Assembly: GCA_963714275.1 (NCBI GenBank)
Contig: CAVQNT010000006.1
Coordinates: forward strand, 364,149 to 428,148
Source of the DNA: Candidatus Bathyarchaeota archaeon
Lineage (GTDB): Archaea; Thermoproteota; Bathyarchaeia; Bathyarchaeales; DTEX01
Direction: 5' to 3'
Length of the DNA: 64,000 nt
Under the pieces are notes generated by a model. It saw only the letters and a program-made list of their open reading frames with translations, was not told the origin of the DNA and searched no databases. A program made the translations under genes and the position numbers. Below are positions 1 through 10,793 of this stretch, one piece after another; the first letter of the stretch is position 1, and the number at the start of each line of letters is the position of its first letter.

Positions 1-79
1 GTTTCATAGGTTTAACCATTAATTATAAAAGAATGCTTGGCACAGCGATGGAACTGTTGCGGAATAAGGATGGATAAAG

Positions 80-277
80 ATGGACTTAAAAAATGAGAAA
101 GTGTTGACTGATGAGGAATTAATGAACCTGATCCAGGAATATTTGGAGAAGGATTTTGACGAGTTGTGGTTTGATTTAACTTCGAAAGAAAGAAAAAAAG
201 TGTTCTCGAAACTCCTCACTGAATACATGGTCTCATTGATTAAGAGGAAGGCTAAAGAGTACAATAAACAAGGATGA
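80..277 (+). CDS. small acidic hypothetical protein
   Basis: 65-aa ORF with purine-rich upstream sequence; no recognisable motif. Confidence 0.5.
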   Translation: MDLKNEKVLTDEELMNLIQEYLEKDFDELWFDLTSKERKKVFSKLLTEYMVSLIKRKAKEYNKQG

Positions 278-331
278 ATAGTCAAGATTTAACTGAGCTT
301 TTATTATGGTAAGATGTGTCTTTAAATGTTT

Positions 332-451
332 ATTTAGGGTGCGGATTTTCCCGCCCAACTTTTAGATGGCTTTCATAGTTAACTCGGAGCGGAAAACCAG
401 TTTTGAATGGCTTTTTGGTTAATTATGGGAATCGGGATCCGCACTCTAAAT
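332..451. repeat. imperfect inverted repeat pair (15-bp arms, 14/15 match)
   Basis: ATTTAGGGTGCGGAT (332-346) vs ATCCGCACTCTAAAT (437-451). Confidence 0.6.
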
Positions 452-580
452 TTATGAAGAGGTTTAAAGCCTCTCAGCTAGAACCAGTTAAGACTCAAGT
501 TGAATAGGCTCTAAACCTTTCCAGAGAAAGGAAGGGTCCTCTTTTCTTTATATAATTTTCCAAAGTTAAAAGCGAGTGCA

Positions 581-612
581 TTAAATTTTAACCCCCCAAC
601 CCTAAACTAACT
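581..612 (-). repeat. TTAAAwTTTAA + G/T-tract motif, copy 1
   Basis: TTAAATTTTAACCCCCCAACCCTAAACTAAC; related copies at 1082, 14958 and 53890. Confidence 0.55.
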
Positions 613-699
613 TTTCCGTTCCTTCTCTTTTCCTATTAGCAATGTATCTAATGCAAGAGAGTAAGCTTCTTAACTAGCCTTTTTTTTGTCTTAATACTT

Positions 700-1023
700 C
701 TATTTTCGCTCTAGCTTGAAGATTACTGGTCTTAATCCGTCTGGGCAACATGCTACTGCAACTCCAGGTTCCTCATACCACTCAGGATACCAGGGATTGC
801 CACCAAACCTGAGCGTCATAATCATCGCGAACATTGCCTCCCAAGCCCAGGTGCAAAACTCGCTTGGCCTACAACAGTATTCATCAACCTGGAATACCTG
901 TCCTTCTTTGAAGACGGGACATGGACCACTATACTTTGCCTTGATTGGAAGATCTTTGAATACCTCTTTGGTGTCAAAACGCTTGAGCACTGTAATCTCT
1001 AAGTAACTTGCCTTCCTCTCCAA
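700..1023 (-). CDS. TIGR04076-family protein
   Basis: CPVFKEGQ.F, FC.WAW and CCPDG.RPVIFKLER motifs typical of the family. Confidence 0.85.
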   Translation of the reverse strand: MERKASYLEITVLKRFDTKEVFKDLPIKAKYSGPCPVFKEGQVFQVDEYCCRPSEFCTWAWEAMFAMIMTLRFGGNPWYPEWYEEPGVAVACCPDGLRPVIFKLERK

Positions 1024-1081
1024 ATAAACACCTCACCCATTGTCTAACCCGCGCACTTTTATGGCTTATGGAAGGACCTTC

Positions 1082-1106
1082 GTTTGGGTTTGGTGTTAAA
1101 TTTTAA
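1082..1106 (+). repeat. TTAAAwTTTAA + G/T-tract motif, copy 2
   Basis: GTTTGGGTTTGGTGTTAAATTTTAA, inverted relative to the copy at 581. Confidence 0.55.
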
Positions 1107-1215
1107 TTAAAAAATAATAATAAGCCTTACGAAATAATGCCCTCTCTCCCCTTAGCTTCACGGATTCTTTAAGTAGGTTTTGAGCTAGCTAAAGCCCTTA
1201 AGGGATGGGTGTGTT

Positions 1216-1494
1216 TTGGGTAAGACTGTTCCTTCTTTCCATATGATGCTTGAGTCGGAGATTGCTAAGTGGAAAGAATTCGTGAAGGCTCTTCCAGGCA
1301 ATTCAGACAAAAAAGCGTTTGAAGAGTTGATGAACCACTGCCGCAGGCACACCATGGCTGCAGGAGCCTCCGTTAGACCAATCGTATCAGATGCCATGTT
1401 CATGTCCATTCTTCTAGCTCACGAAAAAGAACTGAGAGAAATCAAGGCTTCACTAAAAAAACTTAACGGTGCCACGAGTAATGACGAACGATAG
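1216..1494 (+). CDS. small helical protein resembling the PolB2-associated family (arCOG07300-like)
   Basis: MG.T.PS......E...W..F..AL...D...F..L pattern with C-terminal SILL..E. Confidence 0.65.
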   Translation: MGKTVPSFHMMLESEIAKWKEFVKALPGNSDKKAFEELMNHCRRHTMAAGASVRPIVSDAMFMSILLAHEKELREIKASLKKLNGATSNDER

Positions 1495-1898
1495 TTACCA
1501 CTAGTCTACTCTCCTTTCTATTTTCAAATTGCATTTCCTAAGCGCGCACCTGAAGCTCAAGCCAAGGAAATCAAGTTTAAAGTCACTAGTAAAAAGAATA
1601 AAACAGCATAAAATTTATTACGTGGAAAAGGAGATGATAACTCTCTGGGAGATCCAACCTGTCTAAACATATATTTTCTCATCTCCCCGGCAGTTTGGGT
1701 TTCCCAGAAATCCTTTGAAGATGGAGTAGTGAAGATAGTAAGTTACAATATAATTCTGAAGTAAACTTGAAACTTTCATAGGGACGGTTTGCGTAGATTA
1801 AATAATATTCAGAGAATAGAAAATTCTAAGATAAGATCCCCCTCTCCCTCTGTCTTCACAGACTGCTTAAATGGATTTAGTAGTGTCTCTAAATTGTT

Positions 1899-2210
1899 AT
1901 GTTGATAACTGACCAAAGGCGACCAAGGACCATCTGGGGTGAACTTGAGGCTGGGTTAGGAACCGGACCCAGGTTCAGAGTGTTGCTGCATTTAGCGTTG
2001 CATCCGGAGGAATCCTTCACAAAATACGCATTAGTCAAAGCAACTGGGCTGAGGACTCCAGCTGTAACGGAGCAGATAGAAAGGCTTTCAGAGCTTGGGT
2101 GGATCAAAAGGCATGAGTTATTTCCAGCCAAGCATCAAATATGCCTAAACAACATAGTTGCCAGACTCGTTCATGACCTTTTTTGCAGTTTTAGAGGTGT
2201 CAAAGCATAA
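1899..2210 (+). CDS. winged-helix DNA-binding protein
   Basis: FTKYALVKATGLRTPAV...IERLSELGWI HTH-wing pattern. Confidence 0.7.
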   Translation: MLITDQRRPRTIWGELEAGLGTGPRFRVLLHLALHPEESFTKYALVKATGLRTPAVTEQIERLSELGWIKRHELFPAKHQICLNNIVARLVHDLFCSFRGVKA

Positions 2211-2225
2211 CAAGCCAGAAAGAAA

Positions 2226-2453
2226 ATGGAGGAAGTGTGTTTGAGGATTTATCACCGTGTTTTGAAGCAGCAGTACCGTAAGAAAGGATTTTATGAGTAT
2301 GAACTGGTCGCTGTGCCCATTCCAAAAAAGTATAATGAATTCATGAAGCCCTTTCTTGACAAGAACCTCGAAATATCCGTCCAAGTTCTCCCGCCCCCAC
2401 AAGAAGGATTCATGATGGTTTTGAAGCCCAAAAAGAGCTCTAAACCCCCGTAA
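2226..2453 (+). CDS. small basic hypothetical protein
   Basis: 75-aa ORF directly after the wHTH gene; YEYE..VPIPKKY. Confidence 0.55.
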   Translation: MEEVCLRIYHRVLKQQYRKKGFYEYELVAVPIPKKYNEFMKPFLDKNLEISVQVLPPPQEGFMMVLKPKKSSKPP

Positions 2454-2458
2454 AAACG

Positions 2459-2620
2459 TTTCTACATGTAGAAAAATGCCCTTCTAAAACCAGAAAAAAC
2501 CATGCCTTGCAAGCTGGAACAGCAACAGTTTAAACATAAAAATGATTAATCTCCTTATATAGCTGGAATTTTCTACATGTAGAAAAAGTTTGCCTTATAG
2601 TGTTTTTCTACGCGTAGAAA
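2459..2620. promoter_or_regulatory. three palindromic operator-like sites TTTCTACRYGTAGAAA
   Basis: perfect 16-18 bp palindromes at 2459-2474, 2569-2586 and 2605-2620, lying between wHTH genes. Confidence 0.75.
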
Positions 2621-2746
2621 CGAATTCACCGCAGCTTGCACGAAAAATATGATACATAAACCTGTGTAAAAAGCTCAAAAACCCCAAGCCAGAGAATTCC
2701 TCACTCAGGCAGCCTTGATGTCTTAAGACAGTCTGCTTAAGGGCTT

Positions 2747-3142
2747 GTGGGGGACATGACAGGAAATGGGAAACCACGACTATCCGTCTTCAAGGGTATA
2801 GAAGCAAGACTGAACAGAATTATCCTTCTTATTCTTGGCAGGGAATGTTGTTTGAACATCTGGCAAGTTTACAAGAGAGTAAGAGAAACCCGAGGTTTTC
2901 GGCACCTCAGATACCATGTTATTAACAGACGCATAAGGGATCTGGAGCAGGAAGGATTCATAGAAGTAACGATGGTAAAAGAGACACCGCAAGGACAAAA
3001 AGTAAAATATTATCAGCCAACCACGAAAACCTACCTTGCTTTCCTCCTGGATGCCATTAACCTTGACCAACTCATACAATCAGCAAACAACACAGACATC
3101 ATCACATTACTCGCAGCCCTATCAGCCACAGCAATGTCTTAG
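2747..3142 (+). CDS. winged-helix transcriptional regulator
   Basis: LNIWQVYKRV...YHVINRRIRDLEQEGFI...KYYQPT; the start may be the ATG at 2757. Confidence 0.7.
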   Translation: MGDMTGNGKPRLSVFKGIEARLNRIILLILGRECCLNIWQVYKRVRETRGFRHLRYHVINRRIRDLEQEGFIEVTMVKETPQGQKVKYYQPTTKTYLAFLLDAINLDQLIQSANNTDIITLLAALSATAMS

Positions 3143-3273
3143 CGAGCTCAGCTATTGGATTAAATCGATTTTTCACAAGTTTTTTGGATTGAATCGAGTA
3201 AGGCATTATTAGTGAGCTAGCGATAATTTCTTATTTCTAACCAAACATACAATTAATAGAGGAATGAATTATA

Positions 3274-4083
3274 ATGGTTAAATGTTCGAAGTGTGGGTTT
3301 GACATCTTCGCTAAGAGTGCAGCTTTCTGCGTTAATTGTGGGGCACCCATTGAAAGGAAGACGACTGATGCTGATGTATCGAAGCTTAGCGCGCTACCGA
3401 ATAAGCAGGGAAAAAATGCAAAATCTAGGATTATTGAAGAGTTATCAAATAATCTAATCTCCTATAACAAAGAAATTGCTGAAATTGAGAAGTTTTCTGG
3501 AGAGAGTCTGAAAATATTCGCAAAAAATATTGAAGGAGACAAGAAGGATCAAAAAGAGCTTAAGCAATTCCAGCCACAATGCAAAGATTATAAGGACCCA
3601 GAAGGATATGAGCGGGATTACAGGAAATACAAACTTATGATAGAAGAGTTCATCAAAGATGCAGAAAAATTAGAGCAAGAATTGAAAACAGAAGTTAAAA
3701 AGGCTAATGTGTCCGCAGAGAATTATAAAAAACTTTACAACAATATCTCGGATGATAAAAAATTACTAGATTGGGTAAAGAAGTTAGAGCCAACAAGCAT
3801 ACTTCAAGACCTAGAAGGGAACTATACTAATCTAGTGCAAGAAGCGAATAGGAAAAAGGAAAAACCTTGTGAACTCTGCGACGAAGCAAACAAATTGATG
3901 GAAGACTTAAAAAAATGTATAGAAGATTTTCAGCTATTGAGCAATGATACCCATGAATGGCGCGAGGATACCCAAATGGTGGAGAAAAAAGGAATGATAC
4001 CAGACACACCGAGAAGAGAGGAAGTAAGAACAGGCCGGTATAGATGTGAAAACTGTGGTCAGGTTAGTTTCAAGCCAGATTGA
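3274..4083 (+). CDS. zinc-ribbon / coiled-coil protein
   Basis: N-terminal CSKC..CVNCG, long heptad-rich region, internal CELC, C-terminal CENCG; AT-rich. Confidence 0.7.
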   Translation: MVKCSKCGFDIFAKSAAFCVNCGAPIERKTTDADVSKLSALPNKQGKNAKSRIIEELSNNLISYNKEIAEIEKFSGESLKIFAKNIEGDKKDQKELKQFQPQCKDYKDPEGYERDYRKYKLMIEEFIKDAEKLEQELKTEVKKANVSAENYKKLYNNISDDKKLLDWVKKLEPTSILQDLEGNYTNLVQEANRKKEKPCELCDEANKLMEDLKKCIEDFQLLSNDTHEWREDTQMVEKKGMIPDTPRREEVRTGRYRCENCGQVSFKPD

Positions 4084-4568
4084 ATACCGTTAGATATTTT
4101 TAGGTCGCGCGCTAATCGATTGAGTTAATGTTTCATTTCCTTTTCTTAAGTCAGTGTAGAAGAAGAGAAACAAAAATCCATTTGAAGGGATATTTGAGGA
4201 AAAAGCCAATGTAACTAATCCTTAGACATTGGATTAGTATCTGTTTAAACCTAAGAATCTGTCTTGGAATCAGAACATTAAAACCCGATGTACACATCAA
4301 AAAAGCATTGGAAGAACTAGGACATGGAAAGAACGTCGAAGTATGTGAACTAATTTCCGAGTTAATCGGGTATTCTCCTCTGGAATTGGATCAGATATTC
4401 TGGTAAACGTGCCTACTCTATGATGAAAACGTGAACGATGAAAACCTTCTTTTTCTTCGAAGGTTTCCAGAATGTAGTATATTATCAAATTGTAAATTTT
4501 CTGTGTTGGATGTTAATTTTCAATGTGGACTTTCATTGTTCTTCCTAATAGTAAAGTTGTAACTTGAT

Positions 4569-4612
4569 ACTGTCCTTTGCAGACCCCGACAAAGGACAGT
4601 GTCCTTTGTTGG
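4569..4612. promoter_or_regulatory. three GTCCTTTG boxes in alternating orientation (overlapping inverted repeats)
   Basis: ACTGTCCTTTG / CAAAGGACAGT perfect 11-bp inverted repeat; CCGACAAAGGAC / GTCCTTTGTTGG second inverted repeat. Confidence 0.65.
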
Positions 4613-4663
4613 CGCCAGAAATGTCTTATAGTTTTGTTTCAACAAACATTCAAGGTGACATAA

Positions 4664-4924
4664 TTGGTCAGTTTAGTGGAGTCATGGGAAGACCTAGAAG
4701 AATACGCAAAGTGGTGCAGAACCGGCGCCTACCAGACACGGGAAACCGTTGAAGGCATCGAGCTTCGGGTCTTCACTGGCAGGTTTGGCTTTGTAAAATG
4801 TTTCAGGGAAACACAGGATCCCCTGTTCAATCACATCCTGGAGTTCTGCAAAACGGAAGGCTTCATAAAAGTCCTGGGCAACGTGCCAGACGACCTCTTC
4901 TTTTCGGTGCACAGAGAATCTTAA
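4664..4924 (+). CDS. hypothetical protein upstream of the recombinase
   Basis: 86-aa ORF preceded by an AAGGTGA SD-like motif; compact alpha/beta-like composition. Confidence 0.6.
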   Translation: MVSLVESWEDLEEYAKWCRTGAYQTRETVEGIELRVFTGRFGFVKCFRETQDPLFNHILEFCKTEGFIKVLGNVPDDLFFSVHRES

Positions 4925-4935
4925 GTCTTTCAGTA

Positions 4936-6160
4936 ATGAATGGGCAGGGGAGTGGCTGGCTTCCACAGCTCCGTCAACGCATTCTTTTCACCAAAGCAGG
5001 TTCAAACCCCAGATGGGAAGTCCGACATGCATAGCGTCGGCCTGCACCAGCCCCCCATATGCCCAGAATGTGGCTCATCCAAAGCCTGGAAAGATGGGTT
5101 TAGACATGCAGATCAAGGTCTAGTGCAAAGATGGCTCTGCAGAAGCTGCGGAAAAAGGTTTAGCCAATCAAGCCTAACCAATAAAAAGGAGGACCAGCAC
5201 ACTTTAATGTACCAAGTATGCGTTGCTGACGGAGCTACGAAAAACTTGGACACAGTAGAAACCCGAGAAGATGAGGCTAAGCGGGAAGCCACACCAACTT
5301 TAGAATTTGCATGGAAACAAAAGAAACGTGGATTATCTGATTCGACTATAATGACAAGAACATATAGACTTAAAGTGTTAATGCAAAAAGGAGCAGACCT
5401 TTACAATCCTGATAGTGTAGAAACAGTTTTAGCGACGAGCTCATGGACACAAGCAAATAAACAATTCTTCATCATGGCTTATCATTCGTTCTGTAAAACT
5501 ATGAACATATCTTGGATACCTGTTAAAGTCAAATATGAACCGAAACAGCCATTCATACCTTTAGAAACAGAGATAGATCAATTAATAGCAGGTTGCGGAA
5601 AGAGAACAGCCACATTCTTACAAACATTGAAAGAAACAGGTGCAAGAAGCGGAGAGGTCGCTAAGCTCAAGTGGACTGACGTAAACGAAAAAAACAACAC
5701 CATAGCCATAAACGATCCAGAGAAAAACAGTAACTCCAGAACCCTAAAAGTTTCAAGTAAATTAATAGCCATGTTAAACGCCATGCCAAAAAGCAGTATC
5801 TTCGTATTCTGCACACACGTAAGATCAATTTACGGCGCATTCTCAAGACAGAGAAATAAACTGTCAAGAACCCTTCAGAATCCAAGAATCAAGCAAATAC
5901 ACTTTCATACCTTAAGGCATTGGAAAGCCACAATGGAATACCACAGAACCCGAGACATACTTTACGTGAAACATCTATTAGGACATAAACGATTAGAGAA
6001 CACAGAAGGTTATACACACTTAATAGACTTTGAATCTGATGAATATTGCGTATCACACGCTAAAACCTTAAAAGAAGAAAATACACTCTTAGAAACAGGC
6101 TTTGAGTTTATACGATATTCTCAAGAGGATAAAGTAGCCATATACCGAAAGAGAAAGTAG
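4936..6160 (+). CDS. tyrosine recombinase/integrase with N-terminal zinc ribbon
   Basis: CPEC..CRSC ribbon; catalytic R (TGARSGE), K, HxxR (HTLRH), LGH, Y. Start is 4936 if the BHB intron is spliced, otherwise 4940 or an internal ATG. Confidence 0.92.
4941..5065 (+). other. bulge-helix-bulge motif enclosing a candidate 106-nt mRNA intron (4953-5058)
   Basis: TGGGCA-GGGG-AGT-GGCTGG ... CCAGCC-CCCC-ATA-TGCCCA: 6+4+6 Watson-Crick pairs with two 3-nt bulges in canonical geometry. Confidence 0.65.
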
Positions 6161-6219
6161 GAAAAGACGTGTTGATAACGAAAAAAGCATGCTACAAGAG
6201 CATTCATGCGTGATGAGAC

Positions 6220-7378
6220 ATGGCGTTGATTGATTTACGAAGCCAAAAAGTGGCAAAAACCAAGGATGAAATGATTAAACATCTGAAAAGTTTCCGTCTG
6301 GAACCCCGTTTCTCAGCAGGAGTGTGGTTCTTTTTTCCGGGAGGAAGCAGGTTCCACGAAGCATTCATAGAGAAAGGCTCAATCCAAGACATACTAGATA
6401 AAGTTGCAGCTCTCTACGACCGTGGCGTGGTTGATTCCAGCTTTGGTCTGGAAGCCCATTTCCCAAACGAAGTAAACGATGAGCTCATTGACAAGTACAA
6501 GAGTCTCCAGAAAGAAACGGGCATAAAGCTCGATTACCATAGTTCCCAACCTTTTCTATGAGAAGACGTTTGAGTTTGGTTCCCTCTCCAACCCGAACCC
6601 GAAGGTCAGAAGGAAAGCCATCGACAGAACCATCAAGTCTCTTGAACTCAACAAAGAACTGAATACAGAATTCAGTATTGTTTGGCCTGGCGGGGATGGC
6701 TATGAAAATCCAGCGGGAACCGAGTTCTACCTCATGTGGGACAACTTCGAAAAAGGATTAGCGGAAGCCATGGACGCCGTTCCTGGTGTAAGGGTCGCCA
6801 TTGAACCTAAGCCCTACGAACCCAGAGGAAACAACATCTACCGAAACACGGCGAACGGAATCCTCATGACCAGAAACGTCGAAGCCCTATTTTCATCCAA
6901 GGAAAATAAAAGATTACTCAGTGAAGGTCATGCATTAGTTGGATTGAATCCGGAAGTCGGTCACGTCCTGATGGGGCACGAGGAACTGGCGTATTCCTTC
7001 GCGTCCATCCTCCGGGAAGGCAGACTAGCCCACACGCACTGGAACAGCCAGCCTTTAGGCAATTACGATCAGGACTTAAACGTCGGAGTCTTAGGGCTTG
7101 ACCAAATGTTTGCCACGTTGTTTGTCCTGAGAATGTACGGGTATAGGTGCAGGTTTGGAATAGACATCAATCCGGAAAGGATGCCTGTGGAAAAGGCTTT
7201 GGTCCTGAACATCAATGCGCTTAGAGCTGCCTGCGACCGTGTGAACGAGGTGGACTGCGACAGACTCGTTGAAGCCATGCATAGTCCTGAACAGAACAGA
7301 GGCGTAGTTGAAGACGTGATGACGAGAGCCCTAGCTCCGCAGTCGACGCGCCTCATTAACCTCGACAATGTAGACTAG
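6220..7378 (+). CDS. xylose-isomerase-like TIM-barrel sugar isomerase (one apparent frameshift near 6530)
   Basis: WPGGDG, IEPKPYEPR, NPEVGH, HWNSQ..YDQD motifs; two ORFs joined by a 1-nt correction. Confidence 0.8.
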
Positions 7379-8346
7379 CTAAGACTTTTTCTGCAACCTG
7401 AAAATCATTCTTTGCTTCATCCACGGAGCCAACTCCGACCATGCAGGCGTCCACTTCGACTTTTTTGAAAACGTAGGTTAGTGCTTCCTCAGGCGGGATT
7501 CTGCCCCCAGCAAACGGTTTGATGGCGACTACGAGTTTTCCCTGTTTTTTCGCATCTTTAATGGACGTTTCCGCTATTTTCTGCGTTGGAAACATCATGG
7601 CGCCAAGTTTGTTAACTGGCGTAATGAATCCATCATACCCCTTAACGAATCTTTTAGAGATTAATTGATGGGACGCTCCAATATGGTGTGAACCTAATAA
7701 GACGTGATGTCCCGTTTGACTGGTCTTATCAAGGAGCTCCTCAAGTAAGTCTATCCGCGAGATTGCTAGGAAATCGGTTCCTGAGCCGGGTTCAATCCAG
7801 CCTACATTGTAGTCATTGAATTCATTAATCGATGCTTCCCAAACTTTCCAGTTGACCTTCAAATCATTTACGAGCTTATCGTGTTTATACGATTTTGCTG
7901 AATTGAGTCCTTCCTTCCATCCTTGTCGGTAGTTCAGGATTGGGTCTTCGAGGTATCTTTGCGTAATTATATTTCCGTATTGCCTAGCCTCATGTTCCAA
8001 ATGGGTTTTCCATCTTCGGTAGTCGTCTACTCTTTTTCCTTTGAACCTGAACGGCACGTCGATGCATGGTATGAGCCAAATCTGCTTTTCGTCCTCAGCC
8101 TCGATTTCTTTTACTGCGTCAAGGTAGTTTGGGGCAAGAGGGTTGAAGGTTCGGCTTGAGGCAGCAAAGAACTTCACGTCGTGGTTCAGGGCGGTTCTGA
8201 TGACTTTCTTCGTTTCAGCCTTGTTTCGGAATCTTTCATTGTATTCGCTGTCTTTAGTTGTGCCTTGGTAGCCTGACTCCAAGCATAGGAAGGTTGCCTA
8301 GAATTATCCTGTGCTTCCTCAGAATTTCGGTGGATGCTAAGGTCAT
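7356..8346 (-). CDS. hypothetical protein with aldo/keto-reductase-like C-terminus (frameshift near 8270)
   Basis: PVNKLG, AIKPFAGGRIPPEEAL.YV, MVGVGS..EA. Confidence 0.6.
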
Positions 8347-8441
8347 GTTTCTTCAACCTGTTAGCTTATGGTTCTTTAGGCGTTCGTAACAACATCTATG
8401 TATAACGTAAAATGTAGGAAGACGTTTTTTTTATGCCAGCC

Positions 8442-8756
8442 TTATTTGTTGTTTGCTTGTTTGGGGAGAACCTTGAAGTGCGGTTGAAGCCTGTCGGAGC
8501 TCAGCAACGCGTTCATGGAAAAGTAGGTGTCAGAGAACTTTTGTTTAACCATTTCTTCGAGGTCCTGCGCGGAATAGATTTTTCCGACTTCCAGCTTCAG
8601 CTGCTCATCGATCATCGCGTCCACGATGCTGGTTTGTTCGATCACGGTGCCGCAGTCGCCGCAGAAGGTTGCCTCAGTGTCTCTCAGGATGGTCCCTGAA
8701 CCGCATTTAGGGCATTTTATGCCTTTAACTTGAAAAAGGTCTTTTTCGACCATCAC
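8442..8756 (-). CDS. TFIIB-type zinc-ribbon protein
   Basis: CPKCGS...FCGDCGTVI. Confidence 0.6.
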   Translation of the reverse strand: MMVEKDLFQVKGIKCPKCGSGTILRDTEATFCGDCGTVIEQTSIVDAMIDEQLKLEVGKIYSAQDLEEMVKQKFSDTYFSMNALLSSDRLQPHFKVLPKQANNK

Positions 8757-8916
8757 CGCCCACGAATATAGAATGTGCAGACAAGATTAATACAACTTTC
8801 TATCATTGTTGAGAAAGTGATGTTAGAGTTATATGAGTGCCCTCTAGAAATGACTAATATAATTGAAGATGTTTATTGCAGTAAACCAAGACAAAAATGG
8901 AAGGAGAAAACAAGCA

Positions 8917-9790
8917 GTGAAGAAAGTTAAGTATGAAGAAATGTTTCCACACGAAATTGAGGAAATAATGCATGAAACACCCATCGCCTACCTCGCTTTA
9001 GGAACCTTGGAATGGCATGGACCGCATCTCGCACTGGGAAATGACGCCGTCAAAGCCTACGAGTCTGTGCCTACGCATAGCCACGAAAACGGGTGGCATC
9101 GTTGTGCCGCCTACGTTCTGGGCGATTGGCGGAATGCCCCAGCCGTGGACGACAAGGTTTACTGAAGAATTGATTGGACAGCTATTTTACGGAATTTTTG
9201 AACAACTGTCACATGTCGGCTTCAAAGTAATCGTTGCTGTAACTGGGCATTATGGGCATGAACAAGTGCTGACACTAAAGCAGGAAGCCCTCAAGTTCAT
9301 GTTGAGAAACAACACAGTGATTTTTCCCATAGCTGAATACGAAGTCACGACGGACAAGGGCTACCGTGGGGACCACGCCGCGAGATGGGAGACCTCTATT
9401 TTGTGGTATCTTCGCCCAGAACTTGTTGACATAAACCGACTACCCAAGACCGAAAAGATCCTGAACGTTTACGACCACGGAATAATGGGGGAAGACCCGA
9501 GAGCCAACGCGTCGCAGGAACTGGGAAAAGATATAGTCACCATAATAGTTAATCGCCTTGCTGAAACGTCGTTGCAGCTGTTAAAAAATACCTCGCAGTT
9601 CCAGCGTTCAATGTACATTACAGCCCTCTCTAGGCAAGTGCAAATATTGAACAAGAACATTCTAGCGAAGTTAAGGAAGGAGGGAGACGAAGCGAAGCTT
9701 GAAACTTATTATCAGTTCCTTGACCTCGTCTGGAAAGGAAACTATATTGAAGCAATAAAGACAGCAGATATTCTACTTGCAGAAGAGTAG
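8917..9790 (+). CDS. creatininase-family amidohydrolase (frameshift near 9064)
   Basis: G.LEWHGPHL..GND, TGH.G, DHA..WETS. Confidence 0.85.
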
Positions 9791-9811
9791 AAATGCCCAA
9801 AATTAAAAGAA

Positions 9812-10793
9812 TTAACGATACGGGTATCTTCCGTATTTTTGCCCCGTTTTCGACAAGGTTACCGCGTTGACGGGCGGGACTCCCTTGTAGATGCAGTTGC
9901 TTGTGGTCAGAAAGTATCCTCCTCCGGGAGATGCATCTCTTATGCATTGTTTTGCTTCTTCCGCGACCTGTTCAGGTGTCCCGTAAGCCATCGTCGTGGC
10001 TGCGTCCACATTTCCGCAGAGAGCCAACTTGTCGCCATAATGTTGTTTAACCTCAGCCAGCTTCATGCCTGCGCTCGGGTCCACGCTGTGCAGCGCGTCT
10101 ATTCCGGTTGCCACAAGGTCGTTGATGATGGACCAGATGTAGCCGTCCGTGTGCTTCACAAAGTAGATGCCTTTACTGTGAGCAGCCTCAACCATCTGCC
10201 TAAGGTACGGAAAAACCAAGTCGCGGTAAACCCACAAGGAATAGAAGGGACCCTCCTTAAGGCAGTAGTCTGTGCAGTCGAACACGAGCTCAACCCCAGC
10301 GTCCGCCTGCTCCTTAATGTTTTCGACTGACACTTTGATCATCTCGTCCATCATCTTCCTTAACTCGGTGGATTTCGAATAAATTTGGTGCACGAGGCTA
10401 GCCATGTTTTTGCCATCTGGAATGCCAATGGTTCCCGAGGCTGACCCAGCGATCATGTGGTCAGGCGCGATTTTCCTGAGAATTTTAACCGCCTTGATTG
10501 GATCTGGAACGAACCCGACTCTTATGATGTCATAGCCCATTTTTTTGCAGGTTTCAGCCAAAACGTGCGCGTTGTGTTCTGTGATATCTAAGCCTTTTCC
10601 CCGTTCGGTCATTTCTGCGTCTTGTTTAAGGAAGTCTTTGAAAACCGTTTTTGTCCATTCGTCCGGTTCCGAGCTGATGGCGTAGCCTTCGCCGATTATT
10701 TCCTCGGGATACTGGAACTCGAGCTCAAACATCGGCACACGGTCAGGCTCTTCGAGACTCCAAGGCGCAAATTGCCCTTTCACGCGACTTCAT
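9812..10793 (-). CDS. uroporphyrinogen decarboxylase / MtaA-like family protein
   Basis: EPDRVP, HTDG, LCGNVD, GGGYFL..SN; N-terminal MKSRER recovered by a 1-nt correction at 10757. Confidence 0.85.

What the first reader, a model, noticed from the sequence alone, without database searches (positions are those of the whole stretch)
4936..5065. Candidate BHB intron in a tyrosine-integrase mRNA: splicing-gated recombinase
Seen: TGGGCA|GGGG|AGT|GGCTGG (4941-4959) pairs with CCAGCC|CCCC|ATA|TGCCCA (5047-5065): 16 Watson-Crick pairs, a 4-bp central helix and two 3-nt bulges, with canonical polarity only on the coding strand. Established: the archaeal splicing endonuclease EndA cuts after the second nt of each bulge, and BHB introns are known mainly in tRNA/rRNA and rarely in mRNA (crenarchaeal cbf5). 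Seen: applying that rule removes 4953-5058 (106 nt) and joins ATG4936-AAT-GGG-CAG-GGG-AG/A-TGC-CCA-GAA-TGT = MNGQGRCPECG, placing a start right before the zinc ribbon. Unspliced, that ATG frame stops at 5034. The interior is itself structured (CCGAC/GTCGG, GCAGG/CCTGC) and has a T-loop-like GGTTCAAACCC. Inference: host tRNA splicing controls integrase expression and releases a ~106-nt circular RNA that may have its own role. Caveats: ATG4940 and an internal ATG give unspliced in-frame products; the first bulge ends in U rather than the usual A; an AGCT at 4967 is error-prone in this assembly, so intron length could be off by one (the spliced junction is unaffected).
Basis: partly seen in the sequence, partly recalled or inferred. 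Interest (0 to 1): 0.9.

Follow-up and report, generated by a model that had tools for sequence, protein, structure and literature searches.

The report
Conserved splicing-type fold heading integrase genes
The start of a mobile-element integrase gene in this archaeon folds into the RNA shape that the cell's tRNA-splicing enzyme cuts, and related integrase genes keep that shape with different letters, but cutting there would usually remove the start codon rather than supply one.

Summary
The bulge-helix-bulge (BHB) motif is at the stated coordinates: 6+4+6 Watson-Crick pairs and two 3-nt bulges, with canonical polarity on the coding strand. One such motif is not beyond chance; the genome holds about 40 of equal strength, as do control geometries. 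Its recurrence is. 14 of 83 distinct upstream regions of homologous Zn-ribbon tyrosine integrases carry a strict 3-4-3 BHB abutting the first Cys codon, against 0 of 83 elsewhere on the sense strand and 2 of 83 antisense. The letters differ and the pairs covary. Two inner helices also covary. A covariance model finds the element in 17 of 101 related genomes, and 13 of 17 new hits are followed at once by a CPxC reading frame. The genome has two EndA genes and RtcB. The family start codon lies in the 5' bulge, in frame with the zinc ribbon across ten leader lengths. Cleavage would split it. Splicing leaves a start plus an intact first Cys in only 3-4 of 22 loci, the window copy among them. The best reading is a BHB-closed leader RNA through which host splicing enzymes switch off or alter integrase translation and release a 76-120 nt structured RNA. 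No RNA data were available.

The parts
4664..4924 (+). Upstream 86-aa ORF of the same mobile element. Its stop lies 16 nt before the outer helix, so the integrase is probably co-transcribed with it.
   Evidence: ORF list. No Pfam family. The same ORF precedes 4 of the 5 copies in this genome.
4936..4938 (+). ATG that would be in frame with the zinc ribbon only after removal of 4953-5058.
   Evidence: It is present in the window copy only among the five own-genome copies. L057 has a GTG at the same position.
4940..6160 (+). Integrase ORF as read without splicing (406 aa). It comprises a leader peptide (aa 1-40), a CPxC...CxxC zinc ribbon (5060-5149) and the tyrosine-recombinase catalytic domain (about 5567-6022).
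   Evidence: Pfam PF00589 with E 5.8e-18 at aa 210-361, plus weak zinc-ribbon hits at aa 38-74. Invariant Cys, Arg, Lys, His and Tyr columns in 12 homologues.
4941..4946 (+). BHB outer helix, 5' strand. It pairs with 5060-5065.
4947..4950 (+). BHB central 4-bp helix, 5' strand. It pairs with 5053-5056. It is purine-rich and may double as the ribosome-binding site (inference).
   Evidence: All 4 pairs show changes on both sides across the family (helix 1).
4951..4953 (+). 5' bulge of 3 nt, with the predicted EndA cut after 4952. GTG 4952-4954 occupies the position where the family start codon lies.
   Evidence: Cleavage rule from passages of PMC12397907.
4953..5058 (+). Segment bounded by the two predicted cuts (106 nt). 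If cleaved and ligated it would be released, probably as a circle. In the unspliced mRNA it encodes the leader peptide.
4954..4959 (+). BHB inner helix, 5' strand. It pairs with 5047-5052.
   Evidence: helix 2.
4960..4964 (+). Inner helix P3, 5' strand. It pairs with 5016-5020. The middle pair covaries (C-G, A-U, U-A) at sites that fall on third or first codon positions.
   Evidence: helix 3; pair at columns 28/106: CG 7, AU 5, UA 4, GC 1
5016..5020 (+). Inner helix P3, 3' strand.
5022..5040 (+). Hairpin P4 (5022-5026 pairs with 5036-5040).
   Evidence: in the MFE fold. helix 4: all 5 pairs have changes on both sides.
5047..5052 (+). BHB inner helix, 3' strand.
5053..5056 (+). BHB central helix, 3' strand.
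5057..5059 (+). 3' bulge of 3 nt, with the predicted cut after 5058.
5060..5065 (+). BHB outer helix, 3' strand. These bases are the Cys-Pro codons that open the zinc ribbon.

Best explanation
The region is a conserved, structured leader RNA at the 5' end of the mRNA of a Zn-ribbon tyrosine integrase. The integrase belongs to integrated elements or proviruses of Bathyarchaeia-like archaea. A strict bulge-helix-bulge motif closes the leader, and two further helices (P3, P4) lie inside it. The 5' strand of the motif covers the probable ribosome-binding stretch. The start codon sits in the 5' bulge. The 3' strand is made of the codons just before and including the first zinc-binding Cys. The unspliced mRNA is the conserved coding form: start codon, then a leader peptide of about 25-40 aa, then the zinc ribbon. 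When the motif folds, the host splicing endonuclease (two EndA genes here) is expected to cut after the second nucleotide of each bulge, and RtcB is expected to join the ends. That removes the start codon and the leader, and in most relatives it leaves no way to make the integrase. In this window copy the ATG at 4936 happens to allow a shorter, leaderless protein. So splicing most likely turns integrase translation off or changes it, and it releases a structured RNA of 76-120 nt, probably circular. Shown here: the motif, its conservation, covariation, strand and position specificity, the conserved reading frame, and the presence of the enzymes. Inferred: cleavage in vivo, ligation, circularisation, and the direction of the regulatory effect.
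For: A strict 3-4-3 BHB is present in all 5 copies in this genome, with one compensatory G-C to A-U change and one G-U change. It is also present, with different letters, in L010, L014, L015, L016, L021, L057, L086, L105, L106, viral contigs L125, L128, L129, L131, L133, L134, and L147, L149, L160. Position, strand and geometry controls: 14 of 83 distinct regions have it abutting CPxC, 0 of 83 elsewhere in the same 360 nt, and 2 of 83 on the antisense strand. Bulge sizes 2-2 and 1-1, central helices of 5 or 6 bp, and asymmetric bulges give 0-1 hits. The 4-4, 5-5 and 3-bp-centre hits are mostly the same loci slid by one pair. RNAalifold, run without my scanner, returned the central and inner helices plus P3 and P4, with 14 of 18 pairs compensated. 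On the stated structure, 93.6% of cells pair against 80.6% when shuffled (0 of 500 shuffles reach it). 14 pairs have double changes against 6.9 (0 of 500). Slid partners pair at 36-54%. In the core helices G-U outnumbers A-C by 6 to 1, which points to sense-strand RNA. Model R1 finds 5 matches in the own genome and 26 matches in 17 of 101 related genomes. 13 of the 17 new hits are followed at once by a CPxC reading frame, most of them 350-440 aa long. Reading frame: an [A/G]TG lies on bulge nt 2-3 in 15 of 22 homologous loci, always in frame with CPxC. With near-BHB leaders counted, this holds across leader lengths of 76, 78, 96, 100, 106, 109, 111, 114, 117 and 120 nt. Enzymes: two PF01974 genes (98.4 and 76.2 bits) and RtcB (592 bits). 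Precedent for BHB cleavage in mRNAs: cbf5 and the 5' UTR of HVO_1309 (passages of PMC7714728).
Against: There is no RNA evidence of any kind, so cleavage, ligation and circles are untested. Only 14 of 83 family members keep a strict motif. Several leader-bearing alleles have a weak or bulged outer helix (L121, L124, L127, L135) or a mismatch in the central helix (L009/L054, L089, L115), so selection for an exact EndA substrate is not universal. The fold energy of the window copy is not unusual. The tRNA introns of this genome could not be used to calibrate what its EndA accepts. A constitutive off switch on a needed gene has no demonstrated rationale. Three or four loci, including the window, do keep a start in the spliced frame. 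The leader peptide has recurring residues, so part of the conservation could act at protein level. The partner-shuffle test is partly circular, because the loci were chosen for pairing.
Confidence: 0.5

Rival explanations
1. One reading: the segment is a true intron, and splicing creates the functional ORF by placing a start codon just before the zinc ribbon, so tRNA-splicing enzymes switch the integrase on.
For: In the window copy ATG4936 joins the integrase frame after removal of 4953-5058 and keeps the first Cys. L057 has a GTG at the same relative position, and L016 has a GTG in the spliced frame. Relatives without the insert start 2-9 codons before CPxC, and the spliced window product would resemble them.
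Against: Of 22 homologous loci, 10 lose the first Cys codon on splicing. Most of the rest have a stop and no start in the spliced frame, including L002, L003 and L005 of this same genome. The unspliced frame is open with a start in 21 of 22. The start codon in the 5' bulge stays in frame through ten different leader lengths, which would not be maintained if the segment were always removed.
Confidence: 0.08
2. The fold is a translational operator or protein-binding structure that hides the ribosome-binding site and start codon. It is opened by ribosomes finishing the upstream ORF or by a factor, and EndA does not cut it in vivo. On this reading the BHB geometry is tolerated or mimicked but not used.
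For: The start codon and the purine-rich stretch before it lie inside the helices. The upstream ORF ends 16 nt before the outer helix. Many family members keep the central and inner helices but have a weak outer helix. The reading frame is conserved.
Against: A simple occluding hairpin has no need for two 3-nt bulges exactly 4 bp apart on opposite strands. Other geometries are absent from 83 regions. The genome encodes the enzymes that cut this shape, and strict BHBs are cut in other archaeal mRNAs (PMC7714728 passages).
Confidence: 0.2
3. The main product is the excised RNA itself. On this reading the integrase leader is a host-processed precursor of a stable circular non-coding RNA that acts on the element, for example as a cofactor, decoy or regulator of integration or excision.
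For: Inside the BHB two helices covary, including at synonymous codon positions (P3 middle pair CG 7, AU 5, UA 4; P4 has 5 of 5 pairs with double changes). That is more structure than a passive intron needs. BHB-released introns are circularised in other archaea (PMC7714728 and PMC12558985 passages).
Against: The same bases are held in frame as coding sequence. No C/D-box or Rfam family matches. There is no complementarity beyond 6-7 nt between the copy-D leader and the adjacent tRNA-Pro region. No repeat of the region of 13 nt or more lies within 60 kb either side. No RNA data exist.
Confidence: 0.12
4. A chance inverted repeat or a DNA-level feature (attachment site, cruciform, remnant of a tRNA gene) unrelated to RNA processing.
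For: A single motif of this strength is expected about once per 64 kb. Integrases of some archaeal elements carry their attachment site inside the gene (abstract of PMC7253208 in the listing).
Against: It recurs at the homologous place with covariation. G-U pairs occur on the sense strand. It is strand-specific. No tRNA or Rfam match was found. No repeat of the region lies within 60 kb or elsewhere in the genome apart from the 5 paralogues.
Confidence: 0.03

Closest known systems
BHB intron in the cbf5 pre-mRNA of Crenarchaeota (Watanabe 2002, recalled; Yokobori 2009, PMC2738675, listing and abstract seen; mentioned in PMC7714728 passages)
   Same: A BHB motif inside a protein-coding transcript of an archaeon with a two-subunit-type endonuclease. 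It is patchy in phylogeny, with gain and loss.
   Different: The cbf5 intron interrupts the ORF and must be removed to make the protein. Here the unspliced form carries the conserved start and frame, the 5' cut falls inside the start codon, and the gene belongs to a mobile element.
BHB intron in the 5' UTR of HVO_1309, Haloferax volcanii (PMC7714728, passages read)
   Same: A BHB at the 5' end of an mRNA, released as a circle and cut in vitro by the recombinant endonuclease. A regulatory role is suspected.
   Different: That intron (46 nt) lies wholly in the UTR of a cellular peptidase gene, and its removal seems to favour expression. This element overlaps the start codon and the first 25-40 codons, has conserved inner helices, and its removal should usually abolish translation.
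tRNA and rRNA BHB processing with circular products, including the tRNA-Trp intron that is a C/D-box RNA (PMC12558985 and PMC7714728 passages)
   Same: The same motif geometry and the same enzymes (EndA, RtcB). The excised piece can be a functional structured RNA.
   Different: The substrate is not a stable-RNA precursor. No C/D boxes or known RNA family were found.
Ire1/RtcB unconventional splicing of HAC1/XBP1 mRNA in eukaryotes (recalled, no paper read)
   Same: Non-spliceosomal endonuclease cuts at paired stem-loop sites in an mRNA followed by RtcB-type ligation, which changes the reading frame or product.
   Different: A different nuclease and motif. There splicing activates the product, whereas here the comparative data point the other way.
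SSV-type archaeal integrases with the attachment site inside the ORF (PMC7253208, abstract in listing only)
   Same: An archaeal mobile-element tyrosine recombinase whose 5' coding region carries an extra, non-protein signal.
   Different: No att-like repeat was found, the gene is intact in all integrated copies, and the signal is an RNA fold.

Membership tests
Archaeal BHB (hBHBh') splicing-endonuclease substrate | Two 3-nt bulges on opposite strands separated by a 4-bp helix | tested here: met
   4951-4953 and 5057-5059 flank 4947-4950/5053-5056. The same geometry is in 14 of 83 homologous regions, and other geometries are absent.
Archaeal BHB (hBHBh') splicing-endonuclease substrate | Flanking outer and inner helices, with canonical 5'-to-3' order on the transcribed strand | tested here: met
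   6-bp outer and 6-bp inner helices. The strict motif is on the sense strand in 14 of 83 regions and on the antisense strand in 2 of 83.
Archaeal BHB (hBHBh') splicing-endonuclease substrate | Host encodes the splicing endonuclease and an RNA ligase | tested here: met
   Two PF01974 genes and one RtcB gene. That these form an (alpha-beta)2 enzyme is inferred from the presence of two separate genes with open frames of 191 and 211 aa.
Archaeal BHB (hBHBh') splicing-endonuclease substrate | Cleavage at both bulges and ligation of the ends observed | not testable with these tools
   No RNA run was listed. Read laying could not be used.
Protein-coding BHB intron (cbf5 type) | Removal restores a continuous, conserved ORF with its start codon | tested here: not met
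   A spliced frame with a start and an intact first Cys is found in only 3-4 of 22 loci. 10 of 22 lose the Cys codon.
Protein-coding BHB intron (cbf5 type) | Intron sequence free of coding constraint | tested here: not met
   The unspliced frame is open with a start in 21 of 22. Indels keep the frame across ten lengths.
Tyrosine recombinase / phage integrase (PF00589) | Catalytic domain match and conserved catalytic Arg, Lys, His-x-x-Arg, His and Tyr | tested here: met
   PF00589 at 65.7 bits against a cut-off of 27.1. Invariant or nearly invariant columns R196, K222, R286/H287, H309 and Y318 in 12 homologues. Assigning these columns to catalytic roles is recalled knowledge.
SSV-type integrase with attP inside the gene | A copy of the intragenic site at the other end of the element or in a tRNA gene | tested here: not met
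   No repeat of 13 nt or more within 60 kb either side. Only the 5 paralogous leaders match genome-wide.
tRNA or known RNA family | Match to ARAGORN or an Rfam model | tested here: not met
   The only match was a chance-level hit at E 8.1.

The most novel reading that the evidence does not exclude
Archaeal proviruses have put their integrase under the control of the host tRNA-splicing machinery through a dedicated structured leader. EndA cuts inside the start codon, a mode of gene control not described before. The released circular RNA of about 100 nt, with its covarying inner helices, has a job of its own in the element's life cycle, for example sensing host RNA-processing capacity or acting with or against the integrase. 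In the window copy the same event would switch between a leader-bearing and a leaderless integrase isoform.
Probability: 0.2. Interest if true: 0.9.

Novelty: new variant of a known kind. Interest (0 to 1): 0.72.

Why it matters
In the passages read, only two archaeal mRNAs are named as carrying BHB introns, cbf5 and HVO_1309, both cellular genes (PMC7714728). My four literature searches found no paper linking a BHB to an integrase or to any mobile-element gene. Here a whole family of provirus or integrative-element integrases carries a covarying BHB-closed leader RNA. That gives a concrete, testable link between host tRNA-splicing enzymes and control of integration or excision. It is also a case where the 'intron' is coding sequence in the unspliced form and the cut site lies in the start codon. 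It adds a new structured RNA family of about 130 positions and 20 or more pairs in an uncultured, abundant archaeal class, and a natural template for BHB-based circular-RNA or switch designs.

Tried and rejected
RNA evidence. The look-up of sequencing runs on window 1-10000 (kind rna) listed no RNA holder. This says nothing either way.

tRNA or known RNA. ARAGORN and Rfam found nothing at 4850-5150, so the 'T-loop-like' reading was dropped.

Calibrating the cut rule on this genome's own tRNA introns. ARAGORN lists 12 intron-bearing tRNAs, but its intron calls and my strict scanner did not agree on any of them. Their motifs seem relaxed, so the check was inconclusive. I took the cut position from passages of PMC12397907 instead.

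Attachment site or DNA repeat. No repeat of 4900-5100 of 13 nt or more lies within 60 kb either side. No repeat of the tRNA-Pro region next to copy D was found on its contig. Leader-to-tRNA complementarity was at most 6-7 nt. The guide-RNA idea therefore has no support from this one test.

Single-instance significance. It was rejected. My first back-of-envelope estimate was too optimistic.

Fold energy. It is not unusual on either strand.

Codon-position test of the leader. Only one pair (L105/L106) was cleanly alignable. The leader had 16 differences in 96 nt (4, 3, 9 by codon position) against 19 in 300 nt in the body. That is too little to decide. The other pairs were misaligned by indels and were discarded.

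Partner shuffle. The result was 263 of 280 pairs against 208 +/- 5.8. I treat it as weak because the loci were chosen for pairing, and I rely.

Rows dropped. In one search, 27 of 112 distinct regions passed a looser threshold. I set aside five of them (L027, L044, L076, L109, L112) as probable chance hits. Their 5' bulge does not begin with A, their inner helix is unrelated to the family's, and their lengths are outliers (68, 73, 151, 172, 174). That left 22. Frameshifted paralogues (L002-L005, L010, L021) could not enter the protein tree.

Clean intron loss. The close pair L043 (long leader) and L044 (short) differ by replacement of the whole stretch between the upstream stop and the first Cys codon, not by excision at the bulges.

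Not done. I did not search collections for the DNA of the spliced junction, since that would have meant typing a joined sequence. I did not scan metagenome contigs or make a protein structure prediction. Supplementary files of papers were not opened. Those of PMC7714728 (circRNA tables) might list further mRNA BHBs.
Full report
What is there. The window lies in a 2.64-Mb archaeal genome of 10 contigs. At 4940-6160 (+) there is a 406-aa ORF with a Phage_integrase domain (PF00589, E 5.8e-18, aa 210-361). A CPxC...CxxC zinc ribbon begins at codon 41, nt 5060. An 86-aa ORF without a Pfam family ends at 4924. The outer helix is 4941-4946/5060-5065, the central helix is 4947-4950/5053-5056, the bulges are 4951-4953 and 5057-5059, and the inner helix is 4954-4959/5047-5052. 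The repeat finder reports it (I6), and the minimum-free-energy fold of 4930-5075 adopts it. The order of the elements is the canonical BHB order only on the coding strand. Passages of PMC12397907 place the scissile phosphate at the third bulged nucleotide, that is, after the second. The bounded segment is therefore 4953-5058, which is 106 nt.

Is one such motif more than chance? No. The fold energy is ordinary: z = 0.21, and 108 of 200 shuffles fold at least as well. A vectorised scan of both strands of the whole genome used loop sizes 14-300 and required both flanking helices to be at least 4 bp. It found 42 BHB-geometry hits with at least 16 Watson-Crick pairs. Control geometries with 5-5, 1-1 and 4-4 bulges gave 48, 40 and 37. 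That is roughly one per 64 kb. The case rests on comparison.

Recurrence. The 146-nt region has five copies in this genome, at 100, 93, 78, 80 and 78% identity. Each heads a paralogous integrase. A sixth paralogue lacks it. All five keep a strict BHB. Two of them carry a compensatory G-C to A-U change in the central helix and a G-U in the inner helix. A protein search of 61 related genomes found the integrase in 52. Of 19 upstream regions examined, 10 had a strict BHB whose 3' arm abuts the first Cys codon. Five of those are from other genomes and have quite different letters and lengths of 78-109 nt. A scan of the named genome collection returned 80 loci, nearly all Bathyarchaeia MAGs. The host is therefore most likely of that class, which is an inference. 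Four further distinct BHB loci appeared there. Viral contigs gave 21 loci, often at contig ends, and 6 of them have a strict BHB.

Controls. Among 83 distinct upstream regions, 14 have the strict 3-4-3 motif ending within -40 to +12 of CPxC. None has it elsewhere in the same 360 nt, and 2 have it on the antisense strand. Bulges of 2-2 or 1-1, central helices of 5 or 6 bp, and asymmetric bulges gave 0 or 1 region. The hits for 4-4, 5-5 and a 3-bp centre were mostly the same loci with a pair opened.

Covariation. RNAalifold on 19 sequences made no use of my scanner. It predicted the central helix, a 3-column gap, the inner helix, and two further helices inside. 14 of its 18 pairs have compensatory changes. 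On a 20-pair structure, 93.6% of cells pair against 80.6% in shuffles (0 of 500). 14 pairs have double changes against 6.9 (0 of 500). The covariation score is 0.376 against 0.157 (0 of 500), and slid partners pair at only 36-54%. The middle pair of inner helix P3 (window 4963/5017) reads C-G, A-U or U-A, at what are third or first codon positions. Hairpin P4 (5022-5026/5036-5040) has double changes in all 5 pairs. In 17 loci the 16 motif pairs comprised 245 Watson-Crick, 9 G-U, 5 A-C and 13 other. Within the core the ratio of G-U to A-C is 6 to 1, as expected for sense-strand RNA. A covariance model (R1) finds the 5 own copies (84-112 bits) and 26 matches in 17 of 101 genomes of the same order. 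13 of the 17 new hits are followed at once by a CPxC reading frame, most of them 350-440 aa. The element is thus a cis feature of this integrase family.

What splicing would do. In a consolidated table, 27 of 112 distinct regions passed a looser threshold. Five were set aside as probable chance hits, which left 22. Of these 22, 21 have an open unspliced frame from an ATG or GTG at or before the 5' bulge. In 15 the start codon occupies bulge nucleotides 2-3 plus the first base of the inner helix, and it is in frame with CPxC. The one out-of-frame case is a broken gene. Counting near-BHB leaders as well, this holds through lengths of 76, 78, 96, 100, 106, 109, 111, 114, 117 and 120 nt. In the window the same position is GTG 4952-4954, with ATG4940 four codons upstream in the same frame. 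The predicted 5' cut therefore falls inside the start codon. The 3' cut falls at or inside the first Cys codon. After splicing that codon becomes Ser in 10 of 22. A start codon wholly in the 5' exon with Cys intact remains only in the window copy (ATG4936), L057 (GTG at the same position), L016 (GTG), and L004 (a far-upstream start). L002, L003 and L005 of this genome have no start there. So the unspliced mRNA is the conserved coding form, and the ATG4936 arrangement looks like a local accident or a recent addition.

Relatives without the element. Many relatives begin 2-9 codons before CPxC. On a tree of 81 integrases the BHB state is patchy: 8 rows need 6 changes, and BHB plus near-BHB need 8. 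Near-identical integrases can differ in the whole leader cassette (L043 versus L044). In this genome copies A and B are 93% identical across the leader although their integrase bodies share only 45-49% of residues. The leader module therefore moves or recombines independently of the enzyme.

Mechanism. The genome has two EndA-domain genes and RtcB. Strict BHBs in two other archaeal mRNAs are cut, and one is released as a circle (passages of PMC7714728). I therefore think it most likely (0.5) that the leader is an EndA substrate. Folding would compete with translation initiation, because the purine-rich stretch and the start codon lie inside the motif. Cleavage and ligation would then remove the start and the leader, which silences the integrase or, in the window copy, changes it. 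A structured RNA of 76-120 nt would be released. The covarying inner helices leave open that this RNA has a role of its own.

What is missing. No RNA run was listed. The tRNA introns of this genome did not let me calibrate its endonuclease. Only 14 of 83 family members keep a strict motif, and several leader-bearing alleles are degenerate.

Novelty. Four full-text searches found no paper that links a BHB to an integrase or to another mobile-element mRNA. Passages of PMC7714728 name cbf5 and HVO_1309 as the known mRNA cases. This is a new variant of a known kind: the known motif and enzymes, in a new setting (provirus integrase leaders), with a new arrangement in which the start codon lies in the bulge, the 'intron' is coding, and the inner structure is conserved.

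Noticed in passing
window 353-436 (- strand): Another hit of strict BHB geometry (outer helix 8 bp, centre 4, inner 4, 83 nt between the cut-defining points). It lies in a stretch without ORFs of 60 aa or more. The MFE fold keeps the 8-bp outer helix but not the BHB (z = -2.89, 0 of 200 shuffles as stable).
   Followed up: partly
G000 C5:9418-9620 (+) and C4:120978-121251 (+): The two strongest BHB-geometry hits in the whole genome (13+4+9 and 8+4+7 pairs; 202 and 273 nt). Their context was not examined.
   Followed up: no
L001/L002 (G000 C6:369k and C2:559k): Mosaic elements. The upstream ORF plus leader are 93% identical between two copies whose integrase bodies share only about 45-49% of residues. 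This points to recombination or gene conversion of the 5' module.
   Followed up: partly
L002, L003, L004, L005 (own-genome paralogues): Four of the five BHB-bearing paralogues have frameshifts in the integrase. One is an extra A in an A-run, and another is a 1-nt loss just after CPECG. Copies D and E differ by one base at a CAGCTG site.
   Followed up: partly
G000 C4:15550-15625: A tRNA-Pro(GGG) gene lies 24 nt beyond the end of the copy-D integrase, on the opposite strand, as is usual for tRNA-targeting elements. No direct repeat of it was found on that contig.
   Followed up: partly
whole genome G000: ARAGORN tRNA genes with introns, several at non-canonical positions or with more than one insert. 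This fits a broad-specificity two-subunit endonuclease.
   Followed up: partly
L011 (G001:C35): The 3' half of the leader is present, but the 5' half is replaced by AT-rich sequence with no start codon. It is a truncated or rearranged leader.
   Followed up: no
window 1899-2210 (+) and 8442-8756 (-): A MarR-type winged-helix protein lies upstream of the integrase and a TFIIB-type zinc-ribbon protein lies downstream. The ORFs at 6220-8282 have no Pfam family, so the element's right-hand border was not defined.
   Followed up: no
L121, L127 (viral contigs): Their outer helix forms only if one A is bulged out after the first pair (1 bp, a bulged A, then about 6 bp). The conserved 'Cys' codon four residues before the start codon in these leaders is explained by this pairing.
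   Followed up: partly
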